Of a stretch of 64,000 bases of DNA, positions 29,237 to 47,410 are shown piece by piece (within the stretch, counting starts at the first letter, position 1; each line of letters opens with the position of its first letter). The DNA is from Trypanosoma brucei. Lineage: Eukaryota. Position numbers and translations under genes: made by a program. A model generated the notes under the pieces. It made no database searches and had not been told where the DNA came from. It saw only the letters and a program-made list of their open reading frames with translations. Location of the stretch: assembly GCA_000002445.1 (NCBI GenBank), contig CP000067.1, positions 320,001 to 384,000 on the forward strand. Reading direction: 5' to 3'.

Positions 29237-31327
29237 TTATTTTGCTATGATGTTGACAAGCGGGGCGTCCTCGTCGTTTTCGTCTCCCGAAGCAGCCCCA
29301 GCTCCGTTCTTTCCTCTGGACCCGCGTTTTGAGCCACCCCGTTTCTTTTGCTTCTTCTTCTTGCCGCTTGCTTTCTTGCCTGTTTTCGCGGCTGATTTTT
29401 TGCTTCGGGTTTTTTTCTTCTTTGTACCACTCGCCTTCTTAGTGCTGCGCTTGGCACCACCCGACTTTTTGCTTTTTCCATTCGCCGTCTTCTTTCCACT
29501 CTTGTTCTTTGTACTGGATGCGCTCCCTGTCAAAGCAGTTGGGATGACCCGCTTCTTAACGAACTCCTCATATGCCTGTATTTCCTCCGGTGTGCCATAG
29601 GTATTGAGCCACTGGTATTGAACCTCATCTTGCTCCTTGAAGAATTGTGTCGCTGCCTCCTCTACGGAGCCGTTCTCGCTCACGCTTTGGGCGCGCCTGA
29701 GGGTATCGATGGTCCTCTTTATGTCTTCTAATTTGTACTTGATCGATTGAACGGACACGTGGAAAGTCTTGGGGATGGAGCGCTGATGGTTACAGAGCTT
29801 AGCGACTTCCGTATTTGCCTTGTTGAAATAGACGAGTTTGTCCGAAAGGGAGGCCTTCGGGTCCACTGGCTTTTCCCTAAACCACTCATCCAATGTGATG
29901 GAAGCGTTGTAGGTACGGAACACCTTTGCAGACAGGTCCTTCAGAAAGCTCTTCAGGTAGTTGTTTAGGGTCGTGGGTGTCACTTTTCTGAAAATTTCGC
30001 TGTCCGTTCTTTTTATGAAACTCCCCAGAAGCTTGTAAACTTCTGGCAGGACGGTGACCTCATTCACGTACCGGATGGAGTCTTTACCCAGAAAGTCAAA
30101 ACGCACCACATTATCTGGCCTTAACTCGATGTGCTCCTTGCGAAGGGAGCAACAACCCACAGTATCCGCTTCCTCTTCGCCCTTTTCATGACCTACACGC
30201 AACGCCAATTTATCGATAAAGTATGTTGCTACAGCACGCTGCCTCTCCATCTCATCCGTCGACGAAAAATCCTTCGTATAGGATTCCCGTATATCATCAA
30301 TGTGATTTTTCAGCTCGCGCGCTGTCTCGAATTTGGCATAATCCGACTGACCTTTCAGAGTTGAAGACGGCGCAAGCATCACATACTTGCACTGACCAAT
30401 GGTGGGTTCGTACCACATCGCCAACCACGTCACATTCTGATCGTGCACAACCCCCTTCCACTTGTGCCCCGCTGGTGCTTGGGGAATCGGGGCTTCTTTG
30501 CCTATATTTAACACGACATCCTCGGGAAGTATACGTTTCTTCAGTTTCCCTCGCATTGGGTGCTCTCCACGTCCACGGAATAAACCGGGTGGCTCCACGC
30601 GGAAGTTGGCCACCTGCTCCTTCTTGCCATTCCATATACACCATTTATACGGCTCCGCCTCCTCGTCAGCAATACGTTTCAGTTCCTTTTTCTCTTCTCT
30701 TGTGCGACTCTTGCGCTTCTCCACCTCCCTCTGATGCCATTCATATATAGCACTGAAATCACATAACTCGAGGCAGCGAATGGGATGCTTCCGTTTATCG
30801 AGTATCTCCCTCCAGCTCTGAAAAAAGTTCCTACGGAACACTTCGTTGCGGTAATAGTCGTGCTCTCGTAGGACAGCGAACATTGTCGCCACCTCTTCCT
30901 CCTCTGGGGTCATCTCAAACTTTTGCTGATTGTAAAGAATAGGAATGCCATGCGGAACATATGCCGGGGGAAATAACACACCGTTGTGCAACAGTGTGTC
31001 CCACCGCTTTTCCCCCTTTTTTGTTGTTGTCAGAGTCCCCTGCGTCCACCATTCAGTTTCCCCATCGTTTCCACCCCCCTCCTCGTTTGCCAGCAAAGCC
31101 GCCTTATTTTCATCGCCTTCTCTTTTCACAGCCCCTTTTGCGGGCCCCATCCCCGCGGCAACCATCTCCAGCTCATTTTCTTCTTCCTTTATGACAACTT
31201 TCTTGATCTTTTTCTCCGTCATATCTTCTTTCTTAACTACAACTCTCTTCCCATTAACCTCTTCATCTTTTACGGCAACCTTCTTTCCCTTCCCTTCACC
31301 ACTCTTCGGCTTCTGTGCCTTACCCAT
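29237..31327 (-). CDS. TOP1B-L: DNA topoisomerase IB, large (DNA-binding core) subunit of the kinetoplastid heterodimeric enzyme, ~696 aa
   Basis: The ORF-track start is GTG, immediately followed by ATG. Conserved topo I core: WWTQGTLTTTKKGEKRWDTLLHNGVLFPPAY and later DTVGCCSLRKEHIELRPDNVVRFDFLGKDSIRY. The long C-terminal Lys-rich tail carries no catalytic Tyr region, consistent with the split large/small-subunit enzyme of trypanosomatids. Confidence 0.9.
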   Translation of the reverse strand: MGKAQKPKSGEGKGKKVAVKDEEVNGKRVVVKKEDMTEKKIKKVVIKEEENELEMVAAGMGPAKGAVKREGDENKAALLANEEGGGNDGETEWWTQGTLTTTKKGEKRWDTLLHNGVLFPPAYVPHGIPILYNQQKFEMTPEEEEVATMFAVLREHDYYRNEVFRRNFFQSWREILDKRKHPIRCLELCDFSAIYEWHQREVEKRKSRTREEKKELKRIADEEAEPYKWCIWNGKKEQVANFRVEPPGLFRGRGEHPMRGKLKKRILPEDVVLNIGKEAPIPQAPAGHKWKGVVHDQNVTWLAMWYEPTIGQCKYVMLAPSSTLKGQSDYAKFETARELKNHIDDIRESYTKDFSSTDEMERQRAVATYFIDKLALRVGHEKGEEEADTVGCCSLRKEHIELRPDNVVRFDFLGKDSIRYVNEVTVLPEVYKLLGSFIKRTDSEIFRKVTPTTLNNYLKSFLKDLSAKVFRTYNASITLDEWFREKPVDPKASLSDKLVYFNKANTEVAKLCNHQRSIPKTFHVSVQSIKYKLEDIKRTIDTLRRAQSVSENGSVEEAATQFFKEQDEVQYQWLNTYGTPEEIQAYEEFVKKRVIPTALTGSASSTKNKSGKKTANGKSKKSGGAKRSTKKASGTKKKKTRSKKSAAKTGKKASGKKKKQKKRGGSKRGSRGKNGAGAASGDENDEDAPLVNIIAK

Positions 31328-31703
31328 CACACCGAAAGGGGGAGAGATATTATGGCCACTGTGTTTTTCTCTTTATTTCTGTGTGTCTGCACCTATCCCC
31401 ACGGCAAGTTGCGTCGCAGGTGGCAGCGTAAAAACACTAACGTGTGACTTCAAAGGAAAAAAAAAAGCGACAGAGCTACCAGCCGAGTGGAAAGTGGTAG
31501 ACGGAAATGGGAATGATTAAAGAGTATGATAGAGGCAGCACCTTACAAAAAAAAAAAAAGAAGCGTATAACACACAAAGGCACAACGTCGCCCGGTCTAA
31601 TCCCAGCCGCCAGCGCACACCGCAGAGCCCCCGACGAGAGCACGTCTCCTGAGCTAATCCCTTTTCCTCCTTCCACCAAAGAGACCGAAGGGAAACTAAG
31701 ATG

Positions 31704-31779
31704 TTATTATTATTATTATTATTATTTTTTAACTCATGTACTTAATGTGCTCCAGTTTGAACAACAACAACAACAACAA
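31704..31779. repeat. (TTA)n and (CAA)n trinucleotide repeats in the TOP1B-L/CPSF73 intergenic region
   Basis: ttattattattattattatt at ~31704-31726 and caacaacaacaacaacaa at ~31760-31779. Confidence 0.8.
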
Positions 31780-31970
31780 TTCCTCCTCTCCCAACCCTCT
31801 ACAGGAAACCTTCAGTGTACGATTTTGAGGGAGCGTGGATAGCAGAAGAGAAAAATAAAATGGTCCGTTCCAGAGTGCTTGGAGATGATACAAGTCAACT
31901 TGCGAGTGACGGAACCACAGTCAATTCAGGCAACCATCAGATGTCACCAGTTTTTCCCCATACTCTCTGT

Positions 31971-34283
31971 CTATGCGCCCTCGTCAATGGGAGCCGGTTC
32001 AGCACCGTGAATCATACCACAGTCACACCAGCCCTGGTCAACAGGAATTGGGAAGAGAGTCAGGTATACTCGCTTCAGGACGGTCTTCAACCGCTCCACC
32101 TCGGTGGATGAGTAACTTGACTTTGTGTTTCCCTGCAGGTCAATTTCAATACAGCCCGTAATGGTGGCGTGTTGTCCATCCTCTAACTCCACGGTGCACA
32201 CCCCGGTGCCAAGGTTTGTGACAACAGATGGGTAGAACTGTGACATCATGTGGTGAAAGCATTTTAGTCGAAAAAGACGATCATTTCCACAAACGTCCAC
32301 CGGAAGCGCATCTGCGCTGCTTGCTGCATGTTCTTGTTGCATGAGCTTAATGAGAGCAATGCAAGTGACATCCGCAAGGAGGTCGTTGTGATGGCTCGAG
32401 GTCCAATTCACCGTGACTGTCGTCTGAGATCTCGTGCTCTGCTGAACATCAACCCAAACGTCTTTGGAAACCGTAATCTGCGTTGCATTTCCCGCACACT
32501 CCTGCTCCTGACCACCTCCTATGGCATTGGCTGCATCCCCTCCTTCCTGCTTCTGCTGTTCATGCGGGGTTACGTCACTGAACATTTGACTCTGCGCGAA
32601 GTACCGCTTCAGCATTTCGAGCACTTCGTGCGGAGACTTGTACCTTGGAAGCGGCAGAACTATGGCCTGTTGGATTTGCGCCACGTCCAGATCCGTGAAG
32701 TGCGGAATATCGGTTGGATGCACAACGCTATATGTGTGATGTCCGGACATTAGTAACACCCCGCTAATGAATTCGCCATCGCGAGGTGGGTTACGGGCCA
32801 ACGTACCTAATACCTTGGCTGTTCGTTGCACACTAAAGGGTATACGAATGGCTTCTTGGTTTTTGGTGGCGTATACCTGCACCCCGCGGTCGGCAAAGTC
32901 TTGTTGGAGTTTGTTTTTCAGTTGCCCCATTGCCCCAACGTTGCCATGTACAAGAATGACATGTTTTGTCTTGGGTAGAGCTTGGATGAAGTCGCGTGTC
33001 TGTCTGCCATCGGAGTGAGCGGAGAAGGAGACGGATTGAATTGTTCTCATACGGAGAGGCAGGACCTTTCCGTCTGGCTTGGTGATTTCCCTTGGTTTTG
33101 AGAGAATGTCCTTGGCGATGGTCCCGTCAACGCAATAGCCAGCAACAATAATGCCATTCCGTTTGTCACCGCACCACCTTTCAAACAGTTCAAGTGATAT
33201 ACCCGACTGTAGCATACCAGGAGAAGCCAACACAACGCATGGCCCGGTGTCTTCGAAGGAGCGAGTGTCGAGAAGTGACTGAATATACTTAAACACGAAA
33301 GGGTTTCGGTGATTTTCGTGTTGCTTCTTCACTCGGTCATTCATAGCACTGACAAATGTCTGGTACAGCTTCATGCATCGCTGGGCTAGCGAAGATGCGT
33401 AGTAGATGGGTATGTGTTGCAACTCCTTGTGTGCTTCCCAATATTCTTCAAGTATGAGAAGAAGTTCTTGCGCGCGGCCCAGAGCAAATACTGGTACCAA
33501 ACATCGTCCACCCCCCTTCACGACATCGTGCACCCACGTCGTAAACAGGGATTCCCGCTCTTCACGTGACTCCAGTTCGCGTATACCATTTGTACTCTCT
33601 GCAATGAGAATATCGGGCGAGTACGGTGGAACTTCAGCTCCCAGAAGGTGACGGTCGGGAACACGTGAGAAGTCACCTGTATATAATAGTTTCATCCCCG
33701 CAATATCAACCATGAAAAGTGCAGCCCCAAGAACGTGACCGGCATTGAAAGGCTGGAAATGAATACCGTTCACTGTCACCTCTTCGTGGTATTCCACTGT
33801 TTCAATCTTTTCAATGGTACTTTGCAGCCACTCGTTGTTCACAATGTCCTCGGCACTTGCACCAATGCGCAGGAAATCGTTCATCACCATTTTATAGAAA
33901 GCTTTTGTTGCGCTCGTCATGAAGATGCGCCCCCTGAAGGAAGTCTGCTCGCAAAAGTACGGCAGTGCTCCACAGTGATCGAGGTGAAAGTGAGTGATGA
34001 GCACAAGGTCAATTTCGTCACAGCGGATGCTGTCAAAAAATGGAAGAGAATCTAATCCGCTCTTCGCCGGGTGGTTCCCGCAGTCCAGCATAACGGAGCG
34101 GCCCTTGTAGCGGACAACCACACACGAACGGCCGACTTCCCCGCCGCTGCCGATCGGTAGAATCTCCACCTCGTCTGTGGATGGCGGCGCGGCGGCCGGT
34201 TGAGGTCCCGCTGCAAGATGGCGTGGGGAGGAGCTGTCAAGCACATGTACGCCGGGTGCGCTGTACGCCGCGTGTGAAAACAT
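31971..34283 (-). CDS. CPSF3: Cleavage and polyadenylation specificity factor 73-kDa subunit (CPSF3; metallo-beta-lactamase/beta-CASP endonuclease), 770 aa
   Basis: ATG start. Contains the MBL motif LITHFHLDHCGALPYF, the beta-CASP region and the CPSF73 C-terminal domain. The N-terminal core LPIGSGGEVGRSCVVVRYKGRSVMLDCG is highly conserved. Confidence 0.92.
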   Translation of the reverse strand: MFSHAAYSAPGVHVLDSSSPRHLAAGPQPAAAPPSTDEVEILPIGSGGEVGRSCVVVRYKGRSVMLDCGNHPAKSGLDSLPFFDSIRCDEIDLVLITHFHLDHCGALPYFCEQTSFRGRIFMTSATKAFYKMVMNDFLRIGASAEDIVNNEWLQSTIEKIETVEYHEEVTVNGIHFQPFNAGHVLGAALFMVDIAGMKLLYTGDFSRVPDRHLLGAEVPPYSPDILIAESTNGIRELESREERESLFTTWVHDVVKGGGRCLVPVFALGRAQELLLILEEYWEAHKELQHIPIYYASSLAQRCMKLYQTFVSAMNDRVKKQHENHRNPFVFKYIQSLLDTRSFEDTGPCVVLASPGMLQSGISLELFERWCGDKRNGIIVAGYCVDGTIAKDILSKPREITKPDGKVLPLRMRTIQSVSFSAHSDGRQTRDFIQALPKTKHVILVHGNVGAMGQLKNKLQQDFADRGVQVYATKNQEAIRIPFSVQRTAKVLGTLARNPPRDGEFISGVLLMSGHHTYSVVHPTDIPHFTDLDVAQIQQAIVLPLPRYKSPHEVLEMLKRYFAQSQMFSDVTPHEQQKQEGGDAANAIGGGQEQECAGNATQITVSKDVWVDVQQSTRSQTTVTVNWTSSHHNDLLADVTCIALIKLMQQEHAASSADALPVDVCGNDRLFRLKCFHHMMSQFYPSVVTNLGTGVCTVELEDGQHATITGCIEIDLQGNTKSSYSSTEVERLKTVLKRVYLTLFPIPVDQGWCDCGMIHGAEPAPIDEGA

Positions 34284-34576
34284 GTCCGCTACCGCGTATC
34301 TCAGAAGCTAAGCGTTACTACGTGCACTAATGGAAAAACAACAATGTCAACAATGAAGTAGCGAAAGCGACGATAGTGAAGGAACTTGGGCACCCCGATG
34401 GAGAGGGTCATATTGACAAAGTCATATATATATATAGAGAGAGAGGTAGTGGAGTAATGAAGAAGAGTTGAATGCCATGGTGCACAAGTTGAGTGTCTTT
34501 TCACGGGTTTGCACCCTCGCGCGAAGATGTATGGAATTCGCACCAATTCTGTTGCGTCAGCTTCAGCGTTTCGCCT

Positions 34577-36010
34577 CTACCCCGTGTCGTTCCGCTTGGT
34601 GGAAGTGTAAATGGCGCGTTGTACAGCCATTGATGCGTACGGTTTCCCCTGGAATTCCTCTAAAACACACCTCTTCAGCGACAGAAGTGCGTTAACCTTT
34701 TTCTCGATGGTGACGGTTGACGGAACCGTGCACGCACGTAAATGCAACGGTGCTTTTGTTTCCATGCTAGTCACCTTCATGTAGACATCATCTGCTACAA
34801 CACAACTTCGAAGCCTCCTTGCCCCATTTCTGGCCTGAGCGACGGTGTCGCAGTAATTAGATGTCGCAATCGCGGACTGTTCCCCAGTTTGATTCGCCGT
34901 TCTTTGAACCGATAATATCATATCCAGGGACCTTTCTGTGTATTCATGACCGACGTAAATTAGGACATCGTCCGTGTGTATAATATCACCGGTTGCGGGG
35001 TGCACCCATGTGCGATTATTGTTGAAAATGTCCACAGTTTCGAGTGTTTCATCGACTGATGTAGCCTCAAAGAGGGCACCGCAACCCCCACAAAATACGC
35101 AGTCACCTGTGAAGAGTGCAAGCCGCTGCGGCTCACCTTCCTTTGGTAGCGCGTCTCCAACCAAAAACATAACGGACCCGCCGGTGTGGCCCGGGGTCGA
35201 CAGCACCACGACTTTGGCACCACCACCTGCAACAACCAGCTCATCACTACCCTTAATTAATTTATTGCAGGCGTGCGGCCTGTCCACCTCTGAGCCGTAG
35301 ATGTTAAGCTCCGGGGAGAGTAGCGCGCGGCACCTCTCACTACTGCATTGTGACAGGGCACGCATCTCCATGTTTCCACCGGCGTGGTCCCAATGCTTGT
35401 GGGTGGTGAGGATGTCTGTTATCATAAAATCAATTTGCGTGAGGTTCCGCACAACTTCCAGCATATTAAGTACAAGCGTTGGATCAGCAGGATCAACTAC
35501 GGCGCACCGCTTCGTTTTGCAACTCAGAATAAAGTAGGCGTAATTATCCAGTAGCACTGGCACCGGCATAACAAACACACCGTCATAGCATCCTTCCCGG
35601 CACTTCTCCCCAAGATGCTTCAGGTCCACCGTCCCGCCACCCCGCGTATGAAACTCGGAACCTTCCAACACATGAGGAGGGAAGGGACATCGGGTGATGA
35701 TGTTCCCGCTAAGACACCGCACGCCGTGGCGGTAGTCCGAATGCGGGACAGAGTAACGTTTGTGTATGAGGAATCGCAGCCACCTATAACCAACGAGCTC
35801 AGAACAGTAAAGATTGTACAAACACACGAAGAGATTCAACCTGAACCAAACAGGGGGGAAGTACGCGTTGGCTGGTATGAGTCCCAGCAAGCAAGTTGCA
35901 GCGGTGCCGATGACAAGTTGCGTAGCGCTCGCAATAGACGTAACGTAGAGAAAAATAGTGACCGCAACCATGAGAGACGGCCCGACGAACTGCTTCACGC
36001 TTTCCATCAT
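34577..36010 (-). CDS. Hydroxyacylglutathione hydrolase (glyoxalase II)-like metallo-beta-lactamase with an N-terminal extension of 2-3 predicted TM helices, 477 aa
   Basis: ATG start. TTHKHWDHAGGN matches the GLO2 THxHxDH motif (human HAGH: TTHHHWDHAGGN), with downstream GHTxGS and HEYT elements. The N-terminal ~110 aa is hydrophobic (LMVAVTIFLYVTSIASA..., LNLFVCLYNLYC). Confidence 0.7.
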   Translation of the reverse strand: MMESVKQFVGPSLMVAVTIFLYVTSIASATQLVIGTAATCLLGLIPANAYFPPVWFRLNLFVCLYNLYCSELVGYRWLRFLIHKRYSVPHSDYRHGVRCLSGNIITRCPFPPHVLEGSEFHTRGGGTVDLKHLGEKCREGCYDGVFVMPVPVLLDNYAYFILSCKTKRCAVVDPADPTLVLNMLEVVRNLTQIDFMITDILTTHKHWDHAGGNMEMRALSQCSSERCRALLSPELNIYGSEVDRPHACNKLIKGSDELVVAGGGAKVVVLSTPGHTGGSVMFLVGDALPKEGEPQRLALFTGDCVFCGGCGALFEATSVDETLETVDIFNNNRTWVHPATGDIIHTDDVLIYVGHEYTERSLDMILSVQRTANQTGEQSAIATSNYCDTVAQARNGARRLRSCVVADDVYMKVTSMETKAPLHLRACTVPSTVTIEKKVNALLSLKRCVLEEFQGKPYASMAVQRAIYTSTKRNDTG

Positions 36011-37533: not shown

Positions 37534-37983
37534 ATGTTCTTCTCTCCTCTTTTGTGTATAGTTCGGTGGTTTATATAAACGATAATAAAACAAGACAGTG
37601 ATGATGCCGATAACTGAAACTGACCAATAATTTTGATGACTGCTAGTTGTTTTTTTTTTTTACCTTTTCGATATGCTTCGCTGTGGGGAATAGGGATGAA
37701 GCAAGAAGGAAATGTATGCGTAAGGACAGGAAGAGAAGAAAACAATATACGTCAAGCAATATTTGCACAAACACCAGAAAAGGTTGGACCTTAAGAGACC
37801 CGCTCCAAAGGTAACGACAGGCAGGTACGCAGGATAAAATAAACCACCGTTAATATATTAAACCCAGTTCCCCCAACACTAAAGCGGTCACGGCTCCTCG
37901 CCTACTCACAGGTGACAGTACCAACTGACTACAACACCGTCAGTCACTGCATTTGTTCTCTTCAATCTTCAGACAAGGAAGAA

Positions 37984-38439
37984 CTAGAAAAACGGGTAAG
38001 GCGGTGGTGGCCTACGCTTCATAATGTTTTTAATCTTTTGCTTGCACCACGAGTCATGCTGCTTCTCAGCCAAGAGGTAGTCGCTACGGAATTTCTTTGC
38101 CTGCGCCACGGGTAATGCCATCATTGTTTCATTGTGTTTAACAATACGTTCAACATCTGTTCGCATGTGATGATCTATAAATGCCGCGACTTCAAGACCA
38201 ATGGCCACTAGTTGCTTCACCGCCTCCTCATTTGCTTCCTCTGAATACTTGTAGAACTCAACAAGAACACGATGACGCGACCAGAAGAGCTTAGAGCGAT
38301 CATGAAAGTAAGCGGCCCGAAGGCTCTTCATGAGTTGCCGATAGCAATGCTGCTGCGGAGTCCAACATGAGGTGATCAGCGATGCTGTGCTCGGAGCAGA
38401 CACCACCGCATGACATGCCAATGTGGAGCTGCAGTTCAT
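37984..38439 (-). CDS. Small hypothetical protein (start uncertain; possibly LYR-motif-like)
   Basis: The ORF-track start at 38529 is TTG. In-frame ATGs occur at codon 31 (38439) and codon 67 (~38331). The C-terminal half (FWSRHRVLVEFYKYSEEANEEAVKQLVAIG) is basic and helical. Weak call. Confidence 0.35.
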   Translation of the reverse strand: MNCSSTLACHAVVSAPSTASLITSCWTPQQHCYRQLMKSLRAAYFHDRSKLFWSRHRVLVEFYKYSEEANEEAVKQLVAIGLEVAAFIDHHMRTDVERIVKHNETMMALPVAQAKKFRSDYLLAEKQHDSWCKQKIKNIMKRRPPPPYPFF

Positions 38440-38692
38440 GTCGCTATCTACACCAAACGACCGGGAGAAAATGGAAAAACAAAGACAACGAGGTAAGATA
38501 TTTAAATGACTAAAGGTTACAGGTTGCAAGGAATAAGGGAGGCCGATTGCAAATTTGTGAAGGAACTTTGTATTTCATTGGAACAACAAACGATTCCGAC
38601 AAACCGGCGCACATCACTCCATCGGTAAACCCGAGGCGATGACCCTGCTGCCAGCTGCGAAACATCTTCACAAACCCATGACAAAAAAGAAC

Positions 38693-39220
38693 TCACAAGT
38701 CTAAAACATGTGTGAGAGGTCCTTGCGACTCCAACCTCAGCCCCTGCCGGTTACCCCACGTGCCATTAATAACCCGCGCACTTGAACCTACCGCCGATCC
38801 GACCAGCGGAACCCCATTTGAGTCAACAGTAGTTGAGTCAACCCCACGCGCCTTCCTCATGAGCTGACAAAACTGGTTGTAGAGTAACTCCCCTTCACTT
38901 TTCCCCACCAACGCATGAAACTGCACATTCCGACCCTTCAATTTTCCCCCAAGTGACGCCTGTGGTACGATAAGCACATCAGCTGAGGGGAAGCTGCTTA
39001 AAGAGTCGGAAGATCGTGGCAGCGCATCAGATGACGACAAGTTATGGAAAACGTTTGCTGTAAGAATAACATCCACAGCATTTTTCAGTGCGTCTTCACT
39101 CACGGCGCCGATAAATGCAATGTAAATAAGGGCTCCACGACCGACGGACCCGTACCGCTGTTCGTTGTCAAGAAGAAGCGATGCCTTCTCTATCGACTGG
39201 AGTGCTACACGAACGGTCAT
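38693..39220 (-). CDS. DTD: D-aminoacyl-tRNA (D-Tyr-tRNA) deacylase, DTD, 175 aa
   Basis: ATG start. Family-like N-terminus (MTVRVALQSIEKASLLLD... GRGALIYIAFIG), a central VLIVPQASL (cf. VLVVSQFTL) and the C-terminal GTWGNRQGLRLESQGPLTHVLDL matching the DTD C-terminal SQFTL / NDGPVT-like motifs, with an internal insertion. Confidence 0.7.
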   Translation of the reverse strand: MTVRVALQSIEKASLLLDNEQRYGSVGRGALIYIAFIGAVSEDALKNAVDVILTANVFHNLSSSDALPRSSDSLSSFPSADVLIVPQASLGGKLKGRNVQFHALVGKSEGELLYNQFCQLMRKARGVDSTTVDSNGVPLVGSAVGSSARVINGTWGNRQGLRLESQGPLTHVLDL

Positions 39221-40413
39221 TCTTATGTACGATATGATTGAGTACTATTAAATGCTAAAAAAATCCGTAGTGATGAATGATGGGAGGCAAAATGAAAAAA
39301 GATGACCCATCGACTCAAAGGAGGGAAAAGTTAAAGGTAAAGGTAACGGAATAATAATTGATGCGTTAACATCCGGCGTTCACCCAACGAAAAGACAAAA
39401 GAATCCAACAAGATACTCGTTGCAATTAAAAGGCAAACGGAACTTTGGCCATGAGCTCCCACCTCCCCACGAAAAAAAAAAACATCCAAGCAAGAATAAA
39501 ACGAGACGAAACATAATATATATATATATATACTACTGAAACAAATAGCGAAAAGAAAACGCACCGCAATCATGCAGTTCCCCCTCTCCCGCTTTATAAC
39601 TTCAACAGGCATGCGGGAAAAATAAAACGGCAGTCTAATTTTGAATGCCTTAACATCGCCGCAAGTCCACAAGGCCTAGGCCAAATTTTATGCGAGATAT
39701 TCTCATAATCCCCGTGGTTTCATTAGCCGGCTACTTGTGTTTAACACACATGCAACGCACTTGCGTACACGTGTAGTGGTTGCCAAGGGAACACTCATCA
39801 GAAAGTAAAAGAATAAAAACAAAACTAAAAACTGCATTGAAACAAAGAAAACTGGCAGAATGGAATTCTCCACTTTGTAGACAATCTTATGAGTGTGAAA
39901 TACGACGCAGAGAAGGTTGCCAGCGACGTGTGTGAGGAACTGGTACGTAGAGCCAGTAAAAAAAAAAAAATGAAACAAATATTAAATTCGACGTACCGCT
40001 CGAAACCTAAGTAAATAACAAAAGGACACCAGATAGAGTAGTGAAAAGCTAAAGCCAACAACAACAAAATATATTCTAAGCACGGCAAACCGCAGACACG
40101 AGCTGCAGCGTGACGCCGCGGCTAACAAAAAGGAAGAAAAGGGGGAAAGATGGGCCATACGCGGCCCAATCAAATAAAATTAGATAGCGATAAGCTTGAG
40201 GATCAAAGCCTCAGCAACGGCAACCCTTTCACTCTAGACAGAGATGCACGAAGGGGTGTGAAACTAAACGAGTTTTTTTTTCTTACAATTAAAAAGGGAG
40301 AAATGAAAATGTTTATACGAGCAACTTCGCTCAACAGCGCCGCCTCCTCCAAGCAAATACTATTCTCGCCATAAAGACCAACAAGACAAAGAAACCGTGG
40401 GGAGCAAAGCACC

Positions 40414-45565: not shown

Positions 45566-47410
45566 TCATTCGCGCCCCCGCTGGCTCGATAACAAACTGA
45601 GAGTACGTTCGATTGCCTCTAGGCGTTTTTCTAATCTCTGCATCATCTTCTCGTTTTCCTGCCGCACAACTGCCCGCACCACCTCCGTCAGCCTTTCCTC
45701 GTCCAAGCCTGCTGCTCCACTTCGTCTCCACGGTTGTGGAATCTCAGATACCAGTGTAAGATCCCCAATGGTGCGCACTGTTACTTTCTTCGTTTCTCCT
45801 TTCGGTCTTGCATCATTACTAACATCATTAGAACCATGACAGCCATCAAGAAGCTTCCCTGAGAGCAGGAGCAGAGCATCCGAAGTGTCAAAGGGCCACA
45901 CTAACCCAGCCAAAAGACTGGACTCATGCTCAACACCAACAGAAGCCCGTGGCTCCACTTCACAATTTTCACATAAGCCAAACACAATTGCCCGCTCGCT
46001 ATCAAACAGACATAGCTCTCCCCCCAGCTTCCCTGGAGTTGTGTTCCGTGGGCGTCGGATCGTGGCGACCATGGTGGCGTCCCCCCTAAACATGCTCAAG
46101 GCGTTTTTGCACTCCAGAGAGGTCGCGAGGAAAATTTGAGCATCAATTGTGGTCTCTGGGCGCAGCGCTTCAGCACTCCCCTTTCTTTTGCCTGCCGGAA
46201 CATCAGTACAACTCGTGTTTCTTAATACATGCAACTTATCTTGAGCAACCGAAACAACTAGGATTTGTGGCACCGCTGCTGTCGGACTTAACTGCGGCTG
46301 CGTTACTAGTAGCAACGAACTAACGCTTTGCGGACGACCAGAGTCCAAACGGCAGACATCGTTCCACGATGGGAGCACAGACGAATAGTGTGAAGCAGTC
46401 GAGTCGCTTACGGTTTCCATTACGCAAAGGGGGGTGCCGTCTGCCATCTTCAGGGAAAGCGCACCCCGCTCTGCCTGGTCCTCAGCTCCAGTGTTTCCCA
46501 GTGCGCAAAATGTGACAACTCGTTCCACCTCCTCACCGCTCGTGGCAACACTAACATATTGCACACCAGCGGAGATTGCCATGTAGCGGGTGGTGGGTCC
46601 CATAAGGAGCGACCGAATAGCAATAGGCTTCTCTTTGACAGACGACCATTCAAATAGAACAACGCTTCCAAGCGTGCACCCAAGAAGAACCGCGGGACAT
46701 CCGTGGCAGTCTGACAAACCGGAAATAAGTTGAAAGGCTCCAATAGATAGCTCCCGGTGTTGATGACTCGCAGCCGCGGCGCCACCAGAAATTGCGAACG
46801 CATAACTCTCTGTCCGTATGTGATCAGTGGTAACTATGACTGCGTATCCGTTAACTGTCAACGCGCACACATCAATCGCGTGCTGCGGGATGCGGAGCAA
46901 GACGCTACTGTCACCCTCACACGTACCATCGCCGCCGTCATCATTCTCGCTATCGTTTTGCGCATTAGACGGCTCGCACAAGCCCGAGCGAAGGCACACC
47001 ACCTCACCAACAGAGCTCATCACGGCAATTGTCGTTCGACCAGCCCACACCACCTTGGAAATGCCCTGCGATGGCTCAGCACTGAAGTTGAAAGTGCGCC
47101 GTGCGACTGTCATTGAAGAAAGTTCCTCCCCGCAGCCGGCGGTCGTGACGGTCATGACTGTAAGCTCTACTTGAGAAGGCACTTCCGGATTCAGGCTTGC
47201 AACTGCCAGGGTGTTGAACGAGTGGTCGCCCTCCTGCGACGTAGAGGAGGAGGGCGCCATTGCCATAATTCCGGCATTCGCACGTACGCGTAGGCCCCCC
47301 GCCGGGGGAAGGCGAGCAATACCCCGCAATCGCTTCACCGGAACGGCAGTCCCCCTCTTCCCGGTTATGTGGGAAACTGGCGCCCCTCCCGAAGTAAGGA
47401 AGGAAAACAT
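45566..47410 (-). CDS. Hypothetical protein, 614 aa, with C-terminal coiled-coil
   Basis: ATG start; long ORF in PTU orientation. C-terminal EERLTEVVRAVVRQENEKMMQRLEKRLEAIERTLSLL is coiled-coil-like. No recognised domain. Confidence 0.55.
   Translation of the reverse strand: MFSFLTSGGAPVSHITGKRGTAVPVKRLRGIARLPPAGGLRVRANAGIMAMAPSSSTSQEGDHSFNTLAVASLNPEVPSQVELTVMTVTTAGCGEELSSMTVARRTFNFSAEPSQGISKVVWAGRTTIAVMSSVGEVVCLRSGLCEPSNAQNDSENDDGGDGTCEGDSSVLLRIPQHAIDVCALTVNGYAVIVTTDHIRTESYAFAISGGAAAASHQHRELSIGAFQLISGLSDCHGCPAVLLGCTLGSVVLFEWSSVKEKPIAIRSLLMGPTTRYMAISAGVQYVSVATSGEEVERVVTFCALGNTGAEDQAERGALSLKMADGTPLCVMETVSDSTASHYSSVLPSWNDVCRLDSGRPQSVSSLLLVTQPQLSPTAAVPQILVVSVAQDKLHVLRNTSCTDVPAGKRKGSAEALRPETTIDAQIFLATSLECKNALSMFRGDATMVATIRRPRNTTPGKLGGELCLFDSERAIVFGLCENCEVEPRASVGVEHESSLLAGLVWPFDTSDALLLLSGKLLDGCHGSNDVSNDARPKGETKKVTVRTIGDLTLVSEIPQPWRRSGAAGLDEERLTEVVRAVVRQENEKMMQRLEKRLEAIERTLSLLSSQRGRE

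What the first reader, a model, noticed from the sequence alone, without database searches (positions are those of the whole stretch)
31971..34283. CPSF73 (CPSF3): essential mRNA 3'-end endonuclease and validated drug target
In trypanosomes CPSF3 couples polyadenylation to trans-splicing of the downstream gene. It is the reported molecular target of trypanocidal benzoxaboroles (acoziborole class). The active-site region (HFHLDHCG and the beta-CASP histidines) is fully intact here, so the locus is worth checking for resistance-associated substitutions when comparing strains.
Basis: established knowledge. Interest (0 to 1): 0.5.

Follow-up and report, generated by a model that had tools for sequence, protein, structure and literature searches.

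The report
T. brucei CPSF3 gene, drug-sensitive reference allele
This is the already well-studied Trypanosoma brucei gene for CPSF3/CPSF73, the enzyme that cuts mRNA 3' ends and is the target of the sleeping-sickness drug acoziborole, present here as the ordinary drug-sensitive reference sequence with no resistance changes.

Summary
Window 31971..34283 (minus strand) is one intact 770-aa ORF. Its product is identical, residue for residue, to T. brucei brucei TREU927 XP_844284.1/Q581U7, which is CPSF3, Tb927.4.1340, on chromosome 4. It has the full CPSF73 architecture: metallo-beta-lactamase, beta-CASP, RMMBL and the CPSF73 C-terminal domain. Its best solved relative is human CPSF3 (617 bits), well ahead of INTS11 (336) and CPSF100 (116). 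All seven catalytic motifs are intact, including HFHLDHCG at aa 98-105.

All 26 residues within 5 A of docked acoziborole match the published wild type. The published amplicon and sequencing primers match exactly. The resistance positions are wild type: N232 (AAT), Y383 (TAT), S421 and N448 (AAC). So this is the drug-sensitive reference allele.

The gene lies in a minus-strand polycistronic unit between glyoxalase II and the topoisomerase IB large subunit.

Nothing here is new. The gene, its function, its drug-target status and its resistance map are all published (Begolo 2018; Wall 2018; Ridgway 2026). Interest as a discovery is low.

The parts
31971..34283 (-). CPSF3/CPSF73 coding sequence (Tb927.4.1340), 770 aa plus the TAG stop
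   Evidence: ORF. Exact match to XP_844284.1/AAZ10725.1/Q581U7.
33636..34142 (-). Metallo-beta-lactamase domain, N-terminal part (aa 48-216). It carries motif 1 D67, motif 2 H98-F-H100-L-D102-H103 (HFHLDHCG = 33969-33992), motif 3 H183 and motif 4 D204.
   Evidence: Pfam Lactamase_B E=5.1e-21. Residues. Conservation.
33105..33473 (-). beta-CASP domain (aa 271-393) inserted in the MBL fold. Motif A, E229 (33597-33599), lies just upstream of it.
   Evidence: Pfam Beta-Casp E=6.4e-31, profile positions 1-120 of 120.
32895..33062 (-). RMMBL (RNA-specificity) segment, aa 408-463, containing beta-CASP motif B H423 and motif C H446
   Evidence: Pfam RMMBL E=2e-11. H423 and H446 are invariant in 58 of 58 sequences.
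32160..32771 (-). CPSF73 C-terminal domain (aa 505-708)
   Evidence: Pfam CPSF73-100_C E=1.3e-13 over aa 505-655. hhalign of the kinetoplastid CTD profile against the metazoan CPSF73 CTD profile gives probability 98.5% and E=2e-15 over aa 470-708.
33588..33590 (-). Codon N232 (AAT), wild type. N232H (CAT/CAC) gives about 3-fold acoziborole resistance. Human CPSF3 has Tyr here.
   Evidence: for N versus Y across taxa.
33135..33137 (-). Codon Y383 (TAT), wild type. Y383F is the second change in the resistant double and triple mutants.
   Evidence: Y383 is invariant in 58 of 58 sequences.
32940..32942 (-). Codon N448 (AAC), wild type. N448Q or N448H is the third change in the >40-fold resistant triple mutant. 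Gln needs two nucleotide changes from AAC.
33021..33023 (-). Codon S421 (TCC), wild type. It is equivalent to Toxoplasma S519C. No resistant edits were recovered here in T. brucei.
34300..34466 (-). Inferred 5' processing region. It has polypyrimidine tracts at about 34466-34436 and 34341-34332, followed by candidate AG spliced-leader acceptors at 34386/85, 34328/27, 34319/18, 34309/08 and 34301/00. No ATG lies between 34385 and the start codon.
   Evidence: Read directly from the sequence. Their function is inferred from the general kinetoplastid rule (PMC6173450, PMC6597758) and is not mapped here.
31331..31970 (-). 3' intergenic region, containing the CPSF3 3'UTR and the downstream gene's splice signals. 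Poly(T) tracts lie at about 31562-31545 and 31468-31451. The CPSF3 poly(A) site is expected roughly 100-150 nt upstream of the first tract. (TTG)6 and (AAT)7 microsatellites lie at about 31775-31715.
   Evidence: Read directly from the sequence. The position rule comes from PMC6597758. This is inferred, not mapped.

Best explanation
The locus is the single-copy T. brucei brucei TREU927 chromosome 4 gene Tb927.4.1340. It encodes CPSF3 (CPSF73), the two-zinc metallo-beta-lactamase/beta-CASP endonuclease of the cleavage and polyadenylation complex.

Shown here:
- The ORF is intact.
- It has the complete CPSF73 domain architecture.
- All metal-binding and catalytic motifs are present.
- The protein is identical to the reference protein.
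- Every published drug-pocket and resistance position is wild type.

From the literature:
- The enzyme cleaves pre-mRNA at the poly(A) site.
- In kinetoplastids that site is set by the downstream polypyrimidine tract and trans-splice site, so the two reactions depend on each other.
- Benzoxaboroles (acoziborole, AN7973, AN11736) occupy the RNA/zinc pocket next to N232, Y383 and N448.
- They block mRNA processing and trigger proteasomal CPSF3 turnover.

Inferred:
- The gene is transcribed as part of a long minus-strand polycistron.
- Its mRNA is excised by spliced-leader addition at an AG within about 100 nt upstream of the ATG, and by polyadenylation upstream of the topoisomerase IB splice signals.
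For: ORF and coordinates.
Pfam: Beta-Casp 6.4e-31, Lactamase_B 5.1e-21, RMMBL 2e-11, CPSF73-100_C 1.3e-13.
PDB ranking: human CPSF3 at 617 bits and E=2.7e-184, yeast Ysh1 at 454, Cryptosporidium CPSF3 (6q55) at 426, INTS11 at 336, CPSF2 at 116.
Exact identity to XP_844284.1/Q581U7 on a 1,590,432-bp contig.
Six neighbouring ORFs match TREU927 records exactly, and a seventh falls in the cluster of a shorter TREU927 record. Together with CPSF3 these accessions lie in the colinear range AAZ10721-10732.
Published primers ampF, ampR and mid-seq match at 34300-34319, 31926-31945 and 32840-32859. The 26 of 26 drug-pocket residues and the AAT codon at 232 also match.
Orthologues: T. congolense 88%, T. 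cruzi 85%, metazoan CPSF73 43-45%, all named CPSF3/CPSF73.
Catalytic residues are invariant or at least 90% conserved.
The CTD is homologous to the metazoan CPSF73 CTD.
All ORFs of 200 aa or more that are not antisense overlaps lie on the minus strand.
Functional literature: PMC12970967, PMC6173450, PMC6597758.
Against: Nothing in the sequence argues against it.
Endonuclease activity and complex membership cannot be tested with these tools.
No solved structure of the T. brucei enzyme turned up. The drug-pocket residues come from homology models.
[quoted passage not shown] 2022, cited in PMC12970967). Ridgway et al. themselves cannot exclude a second target.
The primary papers Wall 2018 and Koch 2016 were not available to read.
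The trans-splice and poly(A) sites given here are inferred, not mapped.
Confidence: 0.97

Rival explanations
1. It is a different beta-CASP paralogue: the catalytically inactive CPSF100/CPSF2, an Integrator-11-like enzyme, or an RNase J-like protein.
For: All of these share the MBL + beta-CASP fold and are hit in the same searches: INTS11 at 336 bits, CPSF2 at 116 bits, RNase J at 41 bits or less.
Against: CPSF3 scores nearly twice as high as INTS11 and five times as high as CPSF2. All catalytic His/Asp/Glu residues are intact, whereas CPSF100 is the catalytically inactive subunit (established knowledge). The CPSF73-type CTD is present. Every named homologue in the top 120 that carries a functional name is CPSF3/CPSF73. 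The sequence is identical to the gene used experimentally as TbCPSF3.
Confidence: 0.01
2. The allele carries benzoxaborole-resistance or other functionally relevant substitutions that would make it worth flagging in a strain comparison.
For: None in this window. Close relatives do differ at three positions: D92G in one T. b. equiperdum record, A584T in T. equiperdum and T. b. gambiense DAL972, and A770T in gambiense.
Against: The protein is identical to the TREU927 reference. N232, Y383, S421, N448 and all 26 pocket residues are wild type. None of the three natural variants is among the 26 pocket residues.
Confidence: 0.01
3. The gene is CPSF3, but CPSF3 is not the only, or not the main, efficacy-relevant target of acoziborole. 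Other effects, such as SAM/methylation metabolism or other binding proteins, contribute materially.
For: N232H alone gives only about a 3-fold shift, and over-expression gives about 3-fold. Sharma et al. [quoted passage not shown] Benzoxaboroles perturb SAM metabolism (PMC5976210). Ridgway et al. state they cannot rule out a second target, and they see biphasic dose-response curves.
Against: Three pocket substitutions on one CPSF3 allele give more than 40-fold resistance and block drug-induced CPSF3 degradation. The SAM changes were judged to be a possible indirect consequence of mRNA loss.
Confidence: 0.12

Closest known systems
Trypanosoma brucei brucei TREU927 CPSF3 (Tb927.4.1340; XP_844284.1; UniProt Q581U7)
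   Same: Identical over all 770 residues. It sits in the same genomic neighbourhood, between glyoxalase II (XP_844285) upstream and the topoisomerase IB large subunit downstream. The published primers and the codon at N232 match.
   Different: Nothing at the protein level. DNA-level identity to the reference chromosome could not be checked directly, because no T. brucei DNA record is reachable with these tools.
Human CPSF73/CPSF3 (PDB 2i7t/2i7v, 6v4x_H, 6m8q)
   Same: It has the same domain order and the same seven catalytic motifs, with E=2.7e-184 over aa 34-545. The CTD is homologous to the metazoan one. Full-length identity to metazoan orthologues is about 43-45%.
   Different: The pocket differs at N232 (human Y), R235 (H), L237 (H) and N448 (E). 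These are the differences proposed to explain acoziborole selectivity. The parasite protein also has a 35-aa N-terminal extension and a longer linker at about aa 570-600.
Apicomplexan CPSF3 (Cryptosporidium 6q55/6q5a; Toxoplasma TGME49_285200; Plasmodium PF3D7_1438500)
   Same: They are the same enzyme family and the same benzoxaborole-target logic applies. The resistance sites Tg Y328/Y483/S519/E545 and Pf Y408/D470 map to Tb N232/Y383/S421/N448. The hit to 6q55 is 426 bits.
   Different: The residues at the equivalent sites differ, and so do the resistance substitutions: Y383F versus Y-to-N or Y-to-S, and N448Q/H versus E-to-K or D-to-N.
Integrator subunit 11 (INTS11) and CPSF100 (CPSF2)
   Same: They share the MBL + beta-CASP fold.
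   Different: Their scores are much lower, at 336 and 116 bits. Apart from generic labels, the top 120 homologues are named CPSF3/CPSF73 and none is named INTS11 or CPSF100. CPSF100 is a non-catalytic paralogue (established knowledge), whereas every catalytic residue is intact here.

Membership tests
CPSF73/CPSF3 (eukaryotic pre-mRNA 3'-end endonuclease) | Metallo-beta-lactamase motifs 1-4: Asp, HxHxDH, His, Asp | tested here: met
   D67, H98-x-H100-x-D102-H103, H183 and D204 are present. They are invariant in the 33-sequence alignment wherever a residue is present.
CPSF73/CPSF3 (eukaryotic pre-mRNA 3'-end endonuclease) | beta-CASP domain inserted in the MBL fold, with motif A (acidic), motif B (His) and motif C (His) | tested here: met
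   Pfam Beta-Casp covers aa 271-393 and the full profile at E=6.4e-31. E229, H423 and H446 are invariant in 58 of 58 sequences.
CPSF73/CPSF3 (eukaryotic pre-mRNA 3'-end endonuclease) | RMMBL RNA-specificity segment | tested here: met
   PF07521 covers aa 408-463 at E=2e-11.
CPSF73/CPSF3 (eukaryotic pre-mRNA 3'-end endonuclease) | CPSF73-type C-terminal domain, the interface for CPSF100 and symplekin | tested here: met
   PF11718 at E=1.3e-13. hhalign against the metazoan CPSF73 CTD gives probability 98.5% over aa 470-708. The last ~60 aa were not aligned. The binding partners themselves were not tested.
CPSF73/CPSF3 (eukaryotic pre-mRNA 3'-end endonuclease) | Closer to CPSF73 than to the paralogues INTS11, CPSF100 or RNase J | tested here: met
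   617 bits versus 336, 116 and 41 or less. The named top hits with a functional name are all CPSF3/CPSF73. No formal phylogeny was built.
CPSF73/CPSF3 (eukaryotic pre-mRNA 3'-end endonuclease) | Zinc-dependent endonucleolytic cleavage of pre-mRNA, and membership of the CPSF complex | not testable with these tools
   This rests on the literature only: PMC6597758 and PMC9758897 (abstract). Koch et al. 2016 was not available.
T. brucei CPSF3 gene Tb927.4.1340 (benzoxaborole target), wild-type allele | Identity with the experimentally studied gene | tested here: met
   Exact protein match to XP_844284.1. Three published primers match exactly and flank or lie within the ORF.
T. brucei CPSF3 gene Tb927.4.1340 (benzoxaborole target), wild-type allele | Wild-type residues at the 26 pocket positions and at resistance sites N232, Y383, S421 and N448 | tested here: met
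   26 of 26 match. The codons are AAT, TAT, TCC and AAC, checked against S1 Table and the text of PMC12970967.

The most novel reading that the evidence does not exclude
The only mildly new observation concerns the drug-selectivity residues Asn232 and Leu/Met237. They look like a derived state confined to trypanosomatids. All 23 sequences at least 64% identical to the window protein carry them, and the named ones are Trypanosoma, Phytomonas, Angomonas and Strigomonas. All 35 more distant CPSF3s, including Neobodo, Naegleria and unnamed environmental euglenozoan-like sequences, have Tyr/Phe/His at 232 and mostly His at 237. The residues selected in the laboratory as resistance changes also occur naturally elsewhere (H232, Q448, H448). 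Phe383 never does. The most novel reading not excluded is that this pocket remodelling arose once at the base of Trypanosomatidae, and that it reflects an altered RNA-substrate pocket rather than neutral drift. That would make benzoxaborole sensitivity predictable from two residues across kinetoplastids.
Probability: 0.15. Interest if true: 0.3.

Novelty: already known. Interest (0 to 1): 0.08.

Why it matters
CPSF3 matters medically because it is the target of acoziborole, a single-dose oral therapy for sleeping sickness, and of related veterinary and anti-Chagas/anti-leishmanial benzoxaboroles. That is established literature, and this window simply contains the reference, drug-sensitive allele.

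The practical value of this re-check is a set of exact coordinates for surveillance:
- N232 at 33588-33590 (AAT)
- Y383 at 33135-33137 (TAT)
- N448 at 32940-32942 (AAC)

From these codons, N232H, Y383F and N448H are each one nucleotide away. N448Q, the third change of the most resistant triple mutant, needs two nucleotide changes.

Tried and rejected
- The look-up of encoding contigs found no record for the exact protein, so I could not compare the window DNA with a public chromosome. I established strain and chromosome from exact protein look-ups of CPSF3 and its neighbours instead.
- The first neighbour look-ups failed only because the ORF lister starts at the first ATG/GTG/TTG. Six of the eight neighbouring ORFs retried from an ATG matched TREU927 records exactly. 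A seventh (45566-47410) matched T. equiperdum exactly and falls in the same cluster as a shorter TREU927 record. The topoisomerase IB large subunit still did not match from its second codon, and I did not pursue it.
- Wall et al. 2018 (PMC6156652) and Koch et al. 2016 (PMC4829303) are not held. Their content is cited only as relayed by PMC12970967 and PMC6597758.
- I considered that the C-terminal ~115 aa beyond the Pfam match might be a kinetoplastid-specific module linked to trans-splicing coupling. I rejected this because the profile-profile comparison aligns aa 470-708 to the metazoan CPSF73 CTD at 98.5% probability.
- The antisense ORFs inside the gene (32328-32753 +, 141 aa; 33735-34055 +, 106 aa) are treated as chance ORFs opposite a conserved coding sequence.
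- I ran no structure prediction, because sequence evidence was already decisive.
- The Rfam, tRNA and tandem-repeat scans found nothing within the CPSF3 locus itself.
Full report
**Observation.** The ORF listing shows a single 770-aa ORF at exactly 31971..34283 on the minus strand, with an ATG start. The stop codon is TAG. A 770-codon open frame in DNA of about 50% GC has a chance probability of about 1e-16. The beta-CASP histidines H423 and H446 are also present.

**What it is.** Pfam finds the complete CPSF73 architecture:
- Lactamase_B, aa 48-216, E=5.1e-21
- Beta-Casp, aa 271-393, full profile, E=6.4e-31
- RMMBL, aa 408-463, E=2e-11
- CPSF73-100_C, aa 505-655, E=1.3e-13

Against all PDB chains the ranking is as follows:

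| Chain | Bits |
|---|---|
| Human CPSF3 (E=2.7e-184) | 617 |
| Yeast Ysh1 | 454 |
| Cryptosporidium CPSF3 (6q55) | 426 |
| INTS11 | 336 |
| Archaeal CPSF-like / FttA | 150-180 |
| CPSF2/CPSF100 | 116 |
| RNase J | 41 or less |

The exact-sequence look-up shows the product is identical to T. brucei brucei TREU927 AAZ10725.1/XP_844284.1/Q581U7, on a 1,590,432-bp contig. A direct string comparison confirms identity. Six neighbouring ORFs, once started at the annotated ATG, also match TREU927 records exactly. A seventh (45566-47410) matches T. equiperdum exactly and clusters with a shorter TREU927 record, AAZ10732. Together with CPSF3 these accessions lie in the colinear range AAZ10721-10732. The window is therefore a piece of TREU927 chromosome 4.

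**Independent link to the experimental gene.** Ridgway et al. 2026 (PMC12970967) studied CPSF3 = Tb927.4.1340. Their amplicon primers match the window exactly at 34300-34319 and 31926-31945, flanking the ORF. Their sequencing primer matches at 32840-32859. All 26 residues they list as lying within 5 A of docked acoziborole are present at the stated numbers: V50, P72, H100, L101, D102, H103, H183, D204, T231, N232, R235, L237, F266, L268, R270, M357, Y383, V385, V418, F420, S421, A422, H423, H446, G447 and N448. The N232 codon is AAT, as they report.

The resistance map in the literature is as follows:
- N232H gives about 3-fold resistance. It was the only hit among more than 1,500 single-site edits.
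- N232H/Y383F/N448Q gives more than 40-fold resistance and protects CPSF3 from drug-induced proteasomal turnover.
- S421, equivalent to Toxoplasma S519C, yielded no edits.

The window carries N232 (AAT), Y383 (TAT), S421 (TCC) and N448 (AAC), all wild type. From these codons N232H, Y383F and N448H are single-nucleotide changes. N448Q needs two, which agrees with the authors' remark.

Other members of the same 90% cluster differ only at three positions:
- D92G in one T. b. equiperdum record
- A584T in T. equiperdum and T. b. gambiense DAL972
- A770T in gambiense

None of these is a pocket residue.

**Comparative evidence.** The homologue search returned T. congolense (88%), T. grayi (84%), T. 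cruzi (85%), T. rangeli (84%) and Phytomonas (73%), down to metazoan CPSF73 at about 43-45%. Where named with a function, all are CPSF3/CPSF73. The catalytic residues D67, H98, H100, D102, H103, H183, D204, E229, H423 and H446 are invariant in a 33-sequence alignment wherever a residue is present. They are invariant or at least 90% conserved in 58 sequences.

The selectivity positions show a clean split. All 23 sequences at least 64% identical to the query have N232 plus L/M237, and every named one is a trypanosomatid. All 35 more distant ones have Y/F/H232 and mostly H237. N448 is replaced by D or E in many distant taxa. H232, Q448 and H448 occur naturally in a few sequences, whereas Y383 is invariant. 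The human-versus-parasite difference at 232 and 448 is already published. The published oligo set also includes humanising edits at 235, 237 and 418. This pattern therefore only extends known facts.

**C-terminus.** Pfam covered only the first half of its CTD profile. I therefore compared a kinetoplastid CTD profile with a metazoan CPSF73 CTD profile. hhalign gives probability 98.5% and E=2e-15 over aa 470-708. The C-terminal domain is an ordinary, diverged CPSF73 CTD and not a lineage-specific module.

**Context and mechanism.** Every ORF of 200 aa or more in the 64-kb window lies on the minus strand, apart from two that are antisense overlaps. This is as expected for a kinetoplastid polycistronic unit. 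Upstream of CPSF3 is glyoxalase II (34577-35971/36010). Downstream is the DNA topoisomerase IB large subunit (29237-31327).

The 293-bp upstream intergenic region has polypyrimidine tracts followed by several AG dinucleotides within about 100 nt of the ATG. The 640-bp downstream region has two poly(T) tracts ahead of the topoisomerase start.

By the published rule, poly(A) sites are set at a characteristic distance upstream of the active polypyrimidine tract. Trans-splicing and polyadenylation depend on each other (PMC6173450; PMC6597758). These are therefore the likely processing signals of the CPSF3 mRNA. This step is inferred and not mapped.

The enzyme's role is cleavage at the poly(A) site. 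Inhibiting it with AN7973 abolishes the trans-splicing Y-intermediate within 1 h, and CPSF3 over-expression raises the EC50 3-fold.

**Caveats.**
- Enzymatic activity and complex membership cannot be tested here.
- The pocket is defined from homology models, and no solved T. brucei structure turned up.
[quoted passage not shown] A second target is not formally excluded.
- Wall 2018 and Koch 2016 could not be read.

**Verdict.** The finding is correct in both observation and interpretation, but it describes a textbook gene in a reference genome. The suggested follow-up has now been done and is negative: the allele is wild type and drug-sensitive. Novelty is "already known", and interest as a discovery is low.

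Noticed in passing
window 5763-6181: A Pol III gene cluster: U6 snRNA (5763-5858, minus; Rfam 62 bits), a divergent tRNA-Thr(CGT) (5958-6030, plus) starting 99 bp from the U6 5' end, and tRNA-Tyr(GTA) (6097-6181, minus). The tRNA-Tyr is 85 nt long, which fits an 11-nt intron. From my own knowledge this matches the classic T. brucei arrangement in which an upstream divergent tRNA supplies the A/B boxes for U6 transcription, and tRNA-Tyr is the intron-containing tRNA. The cluster sits inside a run of minus-strand protein-coding ORFs.
   Followed up: partly
window 34577-36010 (minus): The gene immediately upstream of CPSF3 is another metallo-beta-lactamase-fold protein, named glyoxalase II / hydroxyacylglutathione hydrolase. 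It has a hydrophobic N-terminal extension of about 150 aa before the MBL domain. TREU927 annotates the start at Met14 (464 aa), whereas gambiense and equiperdum records use Met1 (477 aa).
   Followed up: partly
window 45566-47410 (minus): This 614-aa ORF is annotated as 515 aa in TREU927 (XP_844291.1) but as 614 aa in T. equiperdum, T. b. gambiense and T. b. equiperdum. This looks like a start-codon annotation discrepancy.
   Followed up: no
window 29237-31330 (minus): The DNA topoisomerase IB large subunit has the Topoisom_I_N and Topoisom_I core domains and a Lys-rich tail. This is consistent with the kinetoplastid two-subunit enzyme. Its exact sequence, from either the GTG or the following ATG, is not in the protein collection, although the other neighbours tested have exact matches there. 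I did not resolve why.
   Followed up: no
window 34008-34010 (codon D92 of CPSF3): One public T. b. equiperdum record (RHW73324.1) has D92G. D92 lies six residues before the HxHxDH motif. It is invariant in the 33-sequence alignment and at least 90% conserved in 58 sequences. The variant could be a sequencing or assembly error, or a potentially impaired allele.
   Followed up: partly
window 33573-33590 (codons 232-237 of CPSF3) and homologues P0005-P0066: N232 plus L/M237 occurs in all 23 sequences at least 64% identical, and the named ones are all trypanosomatids. Y/F/H232 with mostly H237 occurs in all 35 more distant CPSF3s. The laboratory resistance residues H232, Q448 and H448 occur naturally in a few distant sequences (P0038, P0039, P0032, P0056). 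F383 is never seen.
   Followed up: partly
window ~31715-31775 (mRNA strand = minus): (TTG)6 and (AAT)7 microsatellites lie in the intergenic region 3' of CPSF3. Poly(T) runs of about 14 and 10 nt lie further downstream, ahead of the topoisomerase IB start.
   Followed up: no
window 37594-40413: This 2.8-kb stretch has no ORF of 200 aa or more. The accession numbering (AAZ10728 and AAZ10729 fall between the matched neighbours) implies two small annotated genes here. I did not examine it.
   Followed up: no
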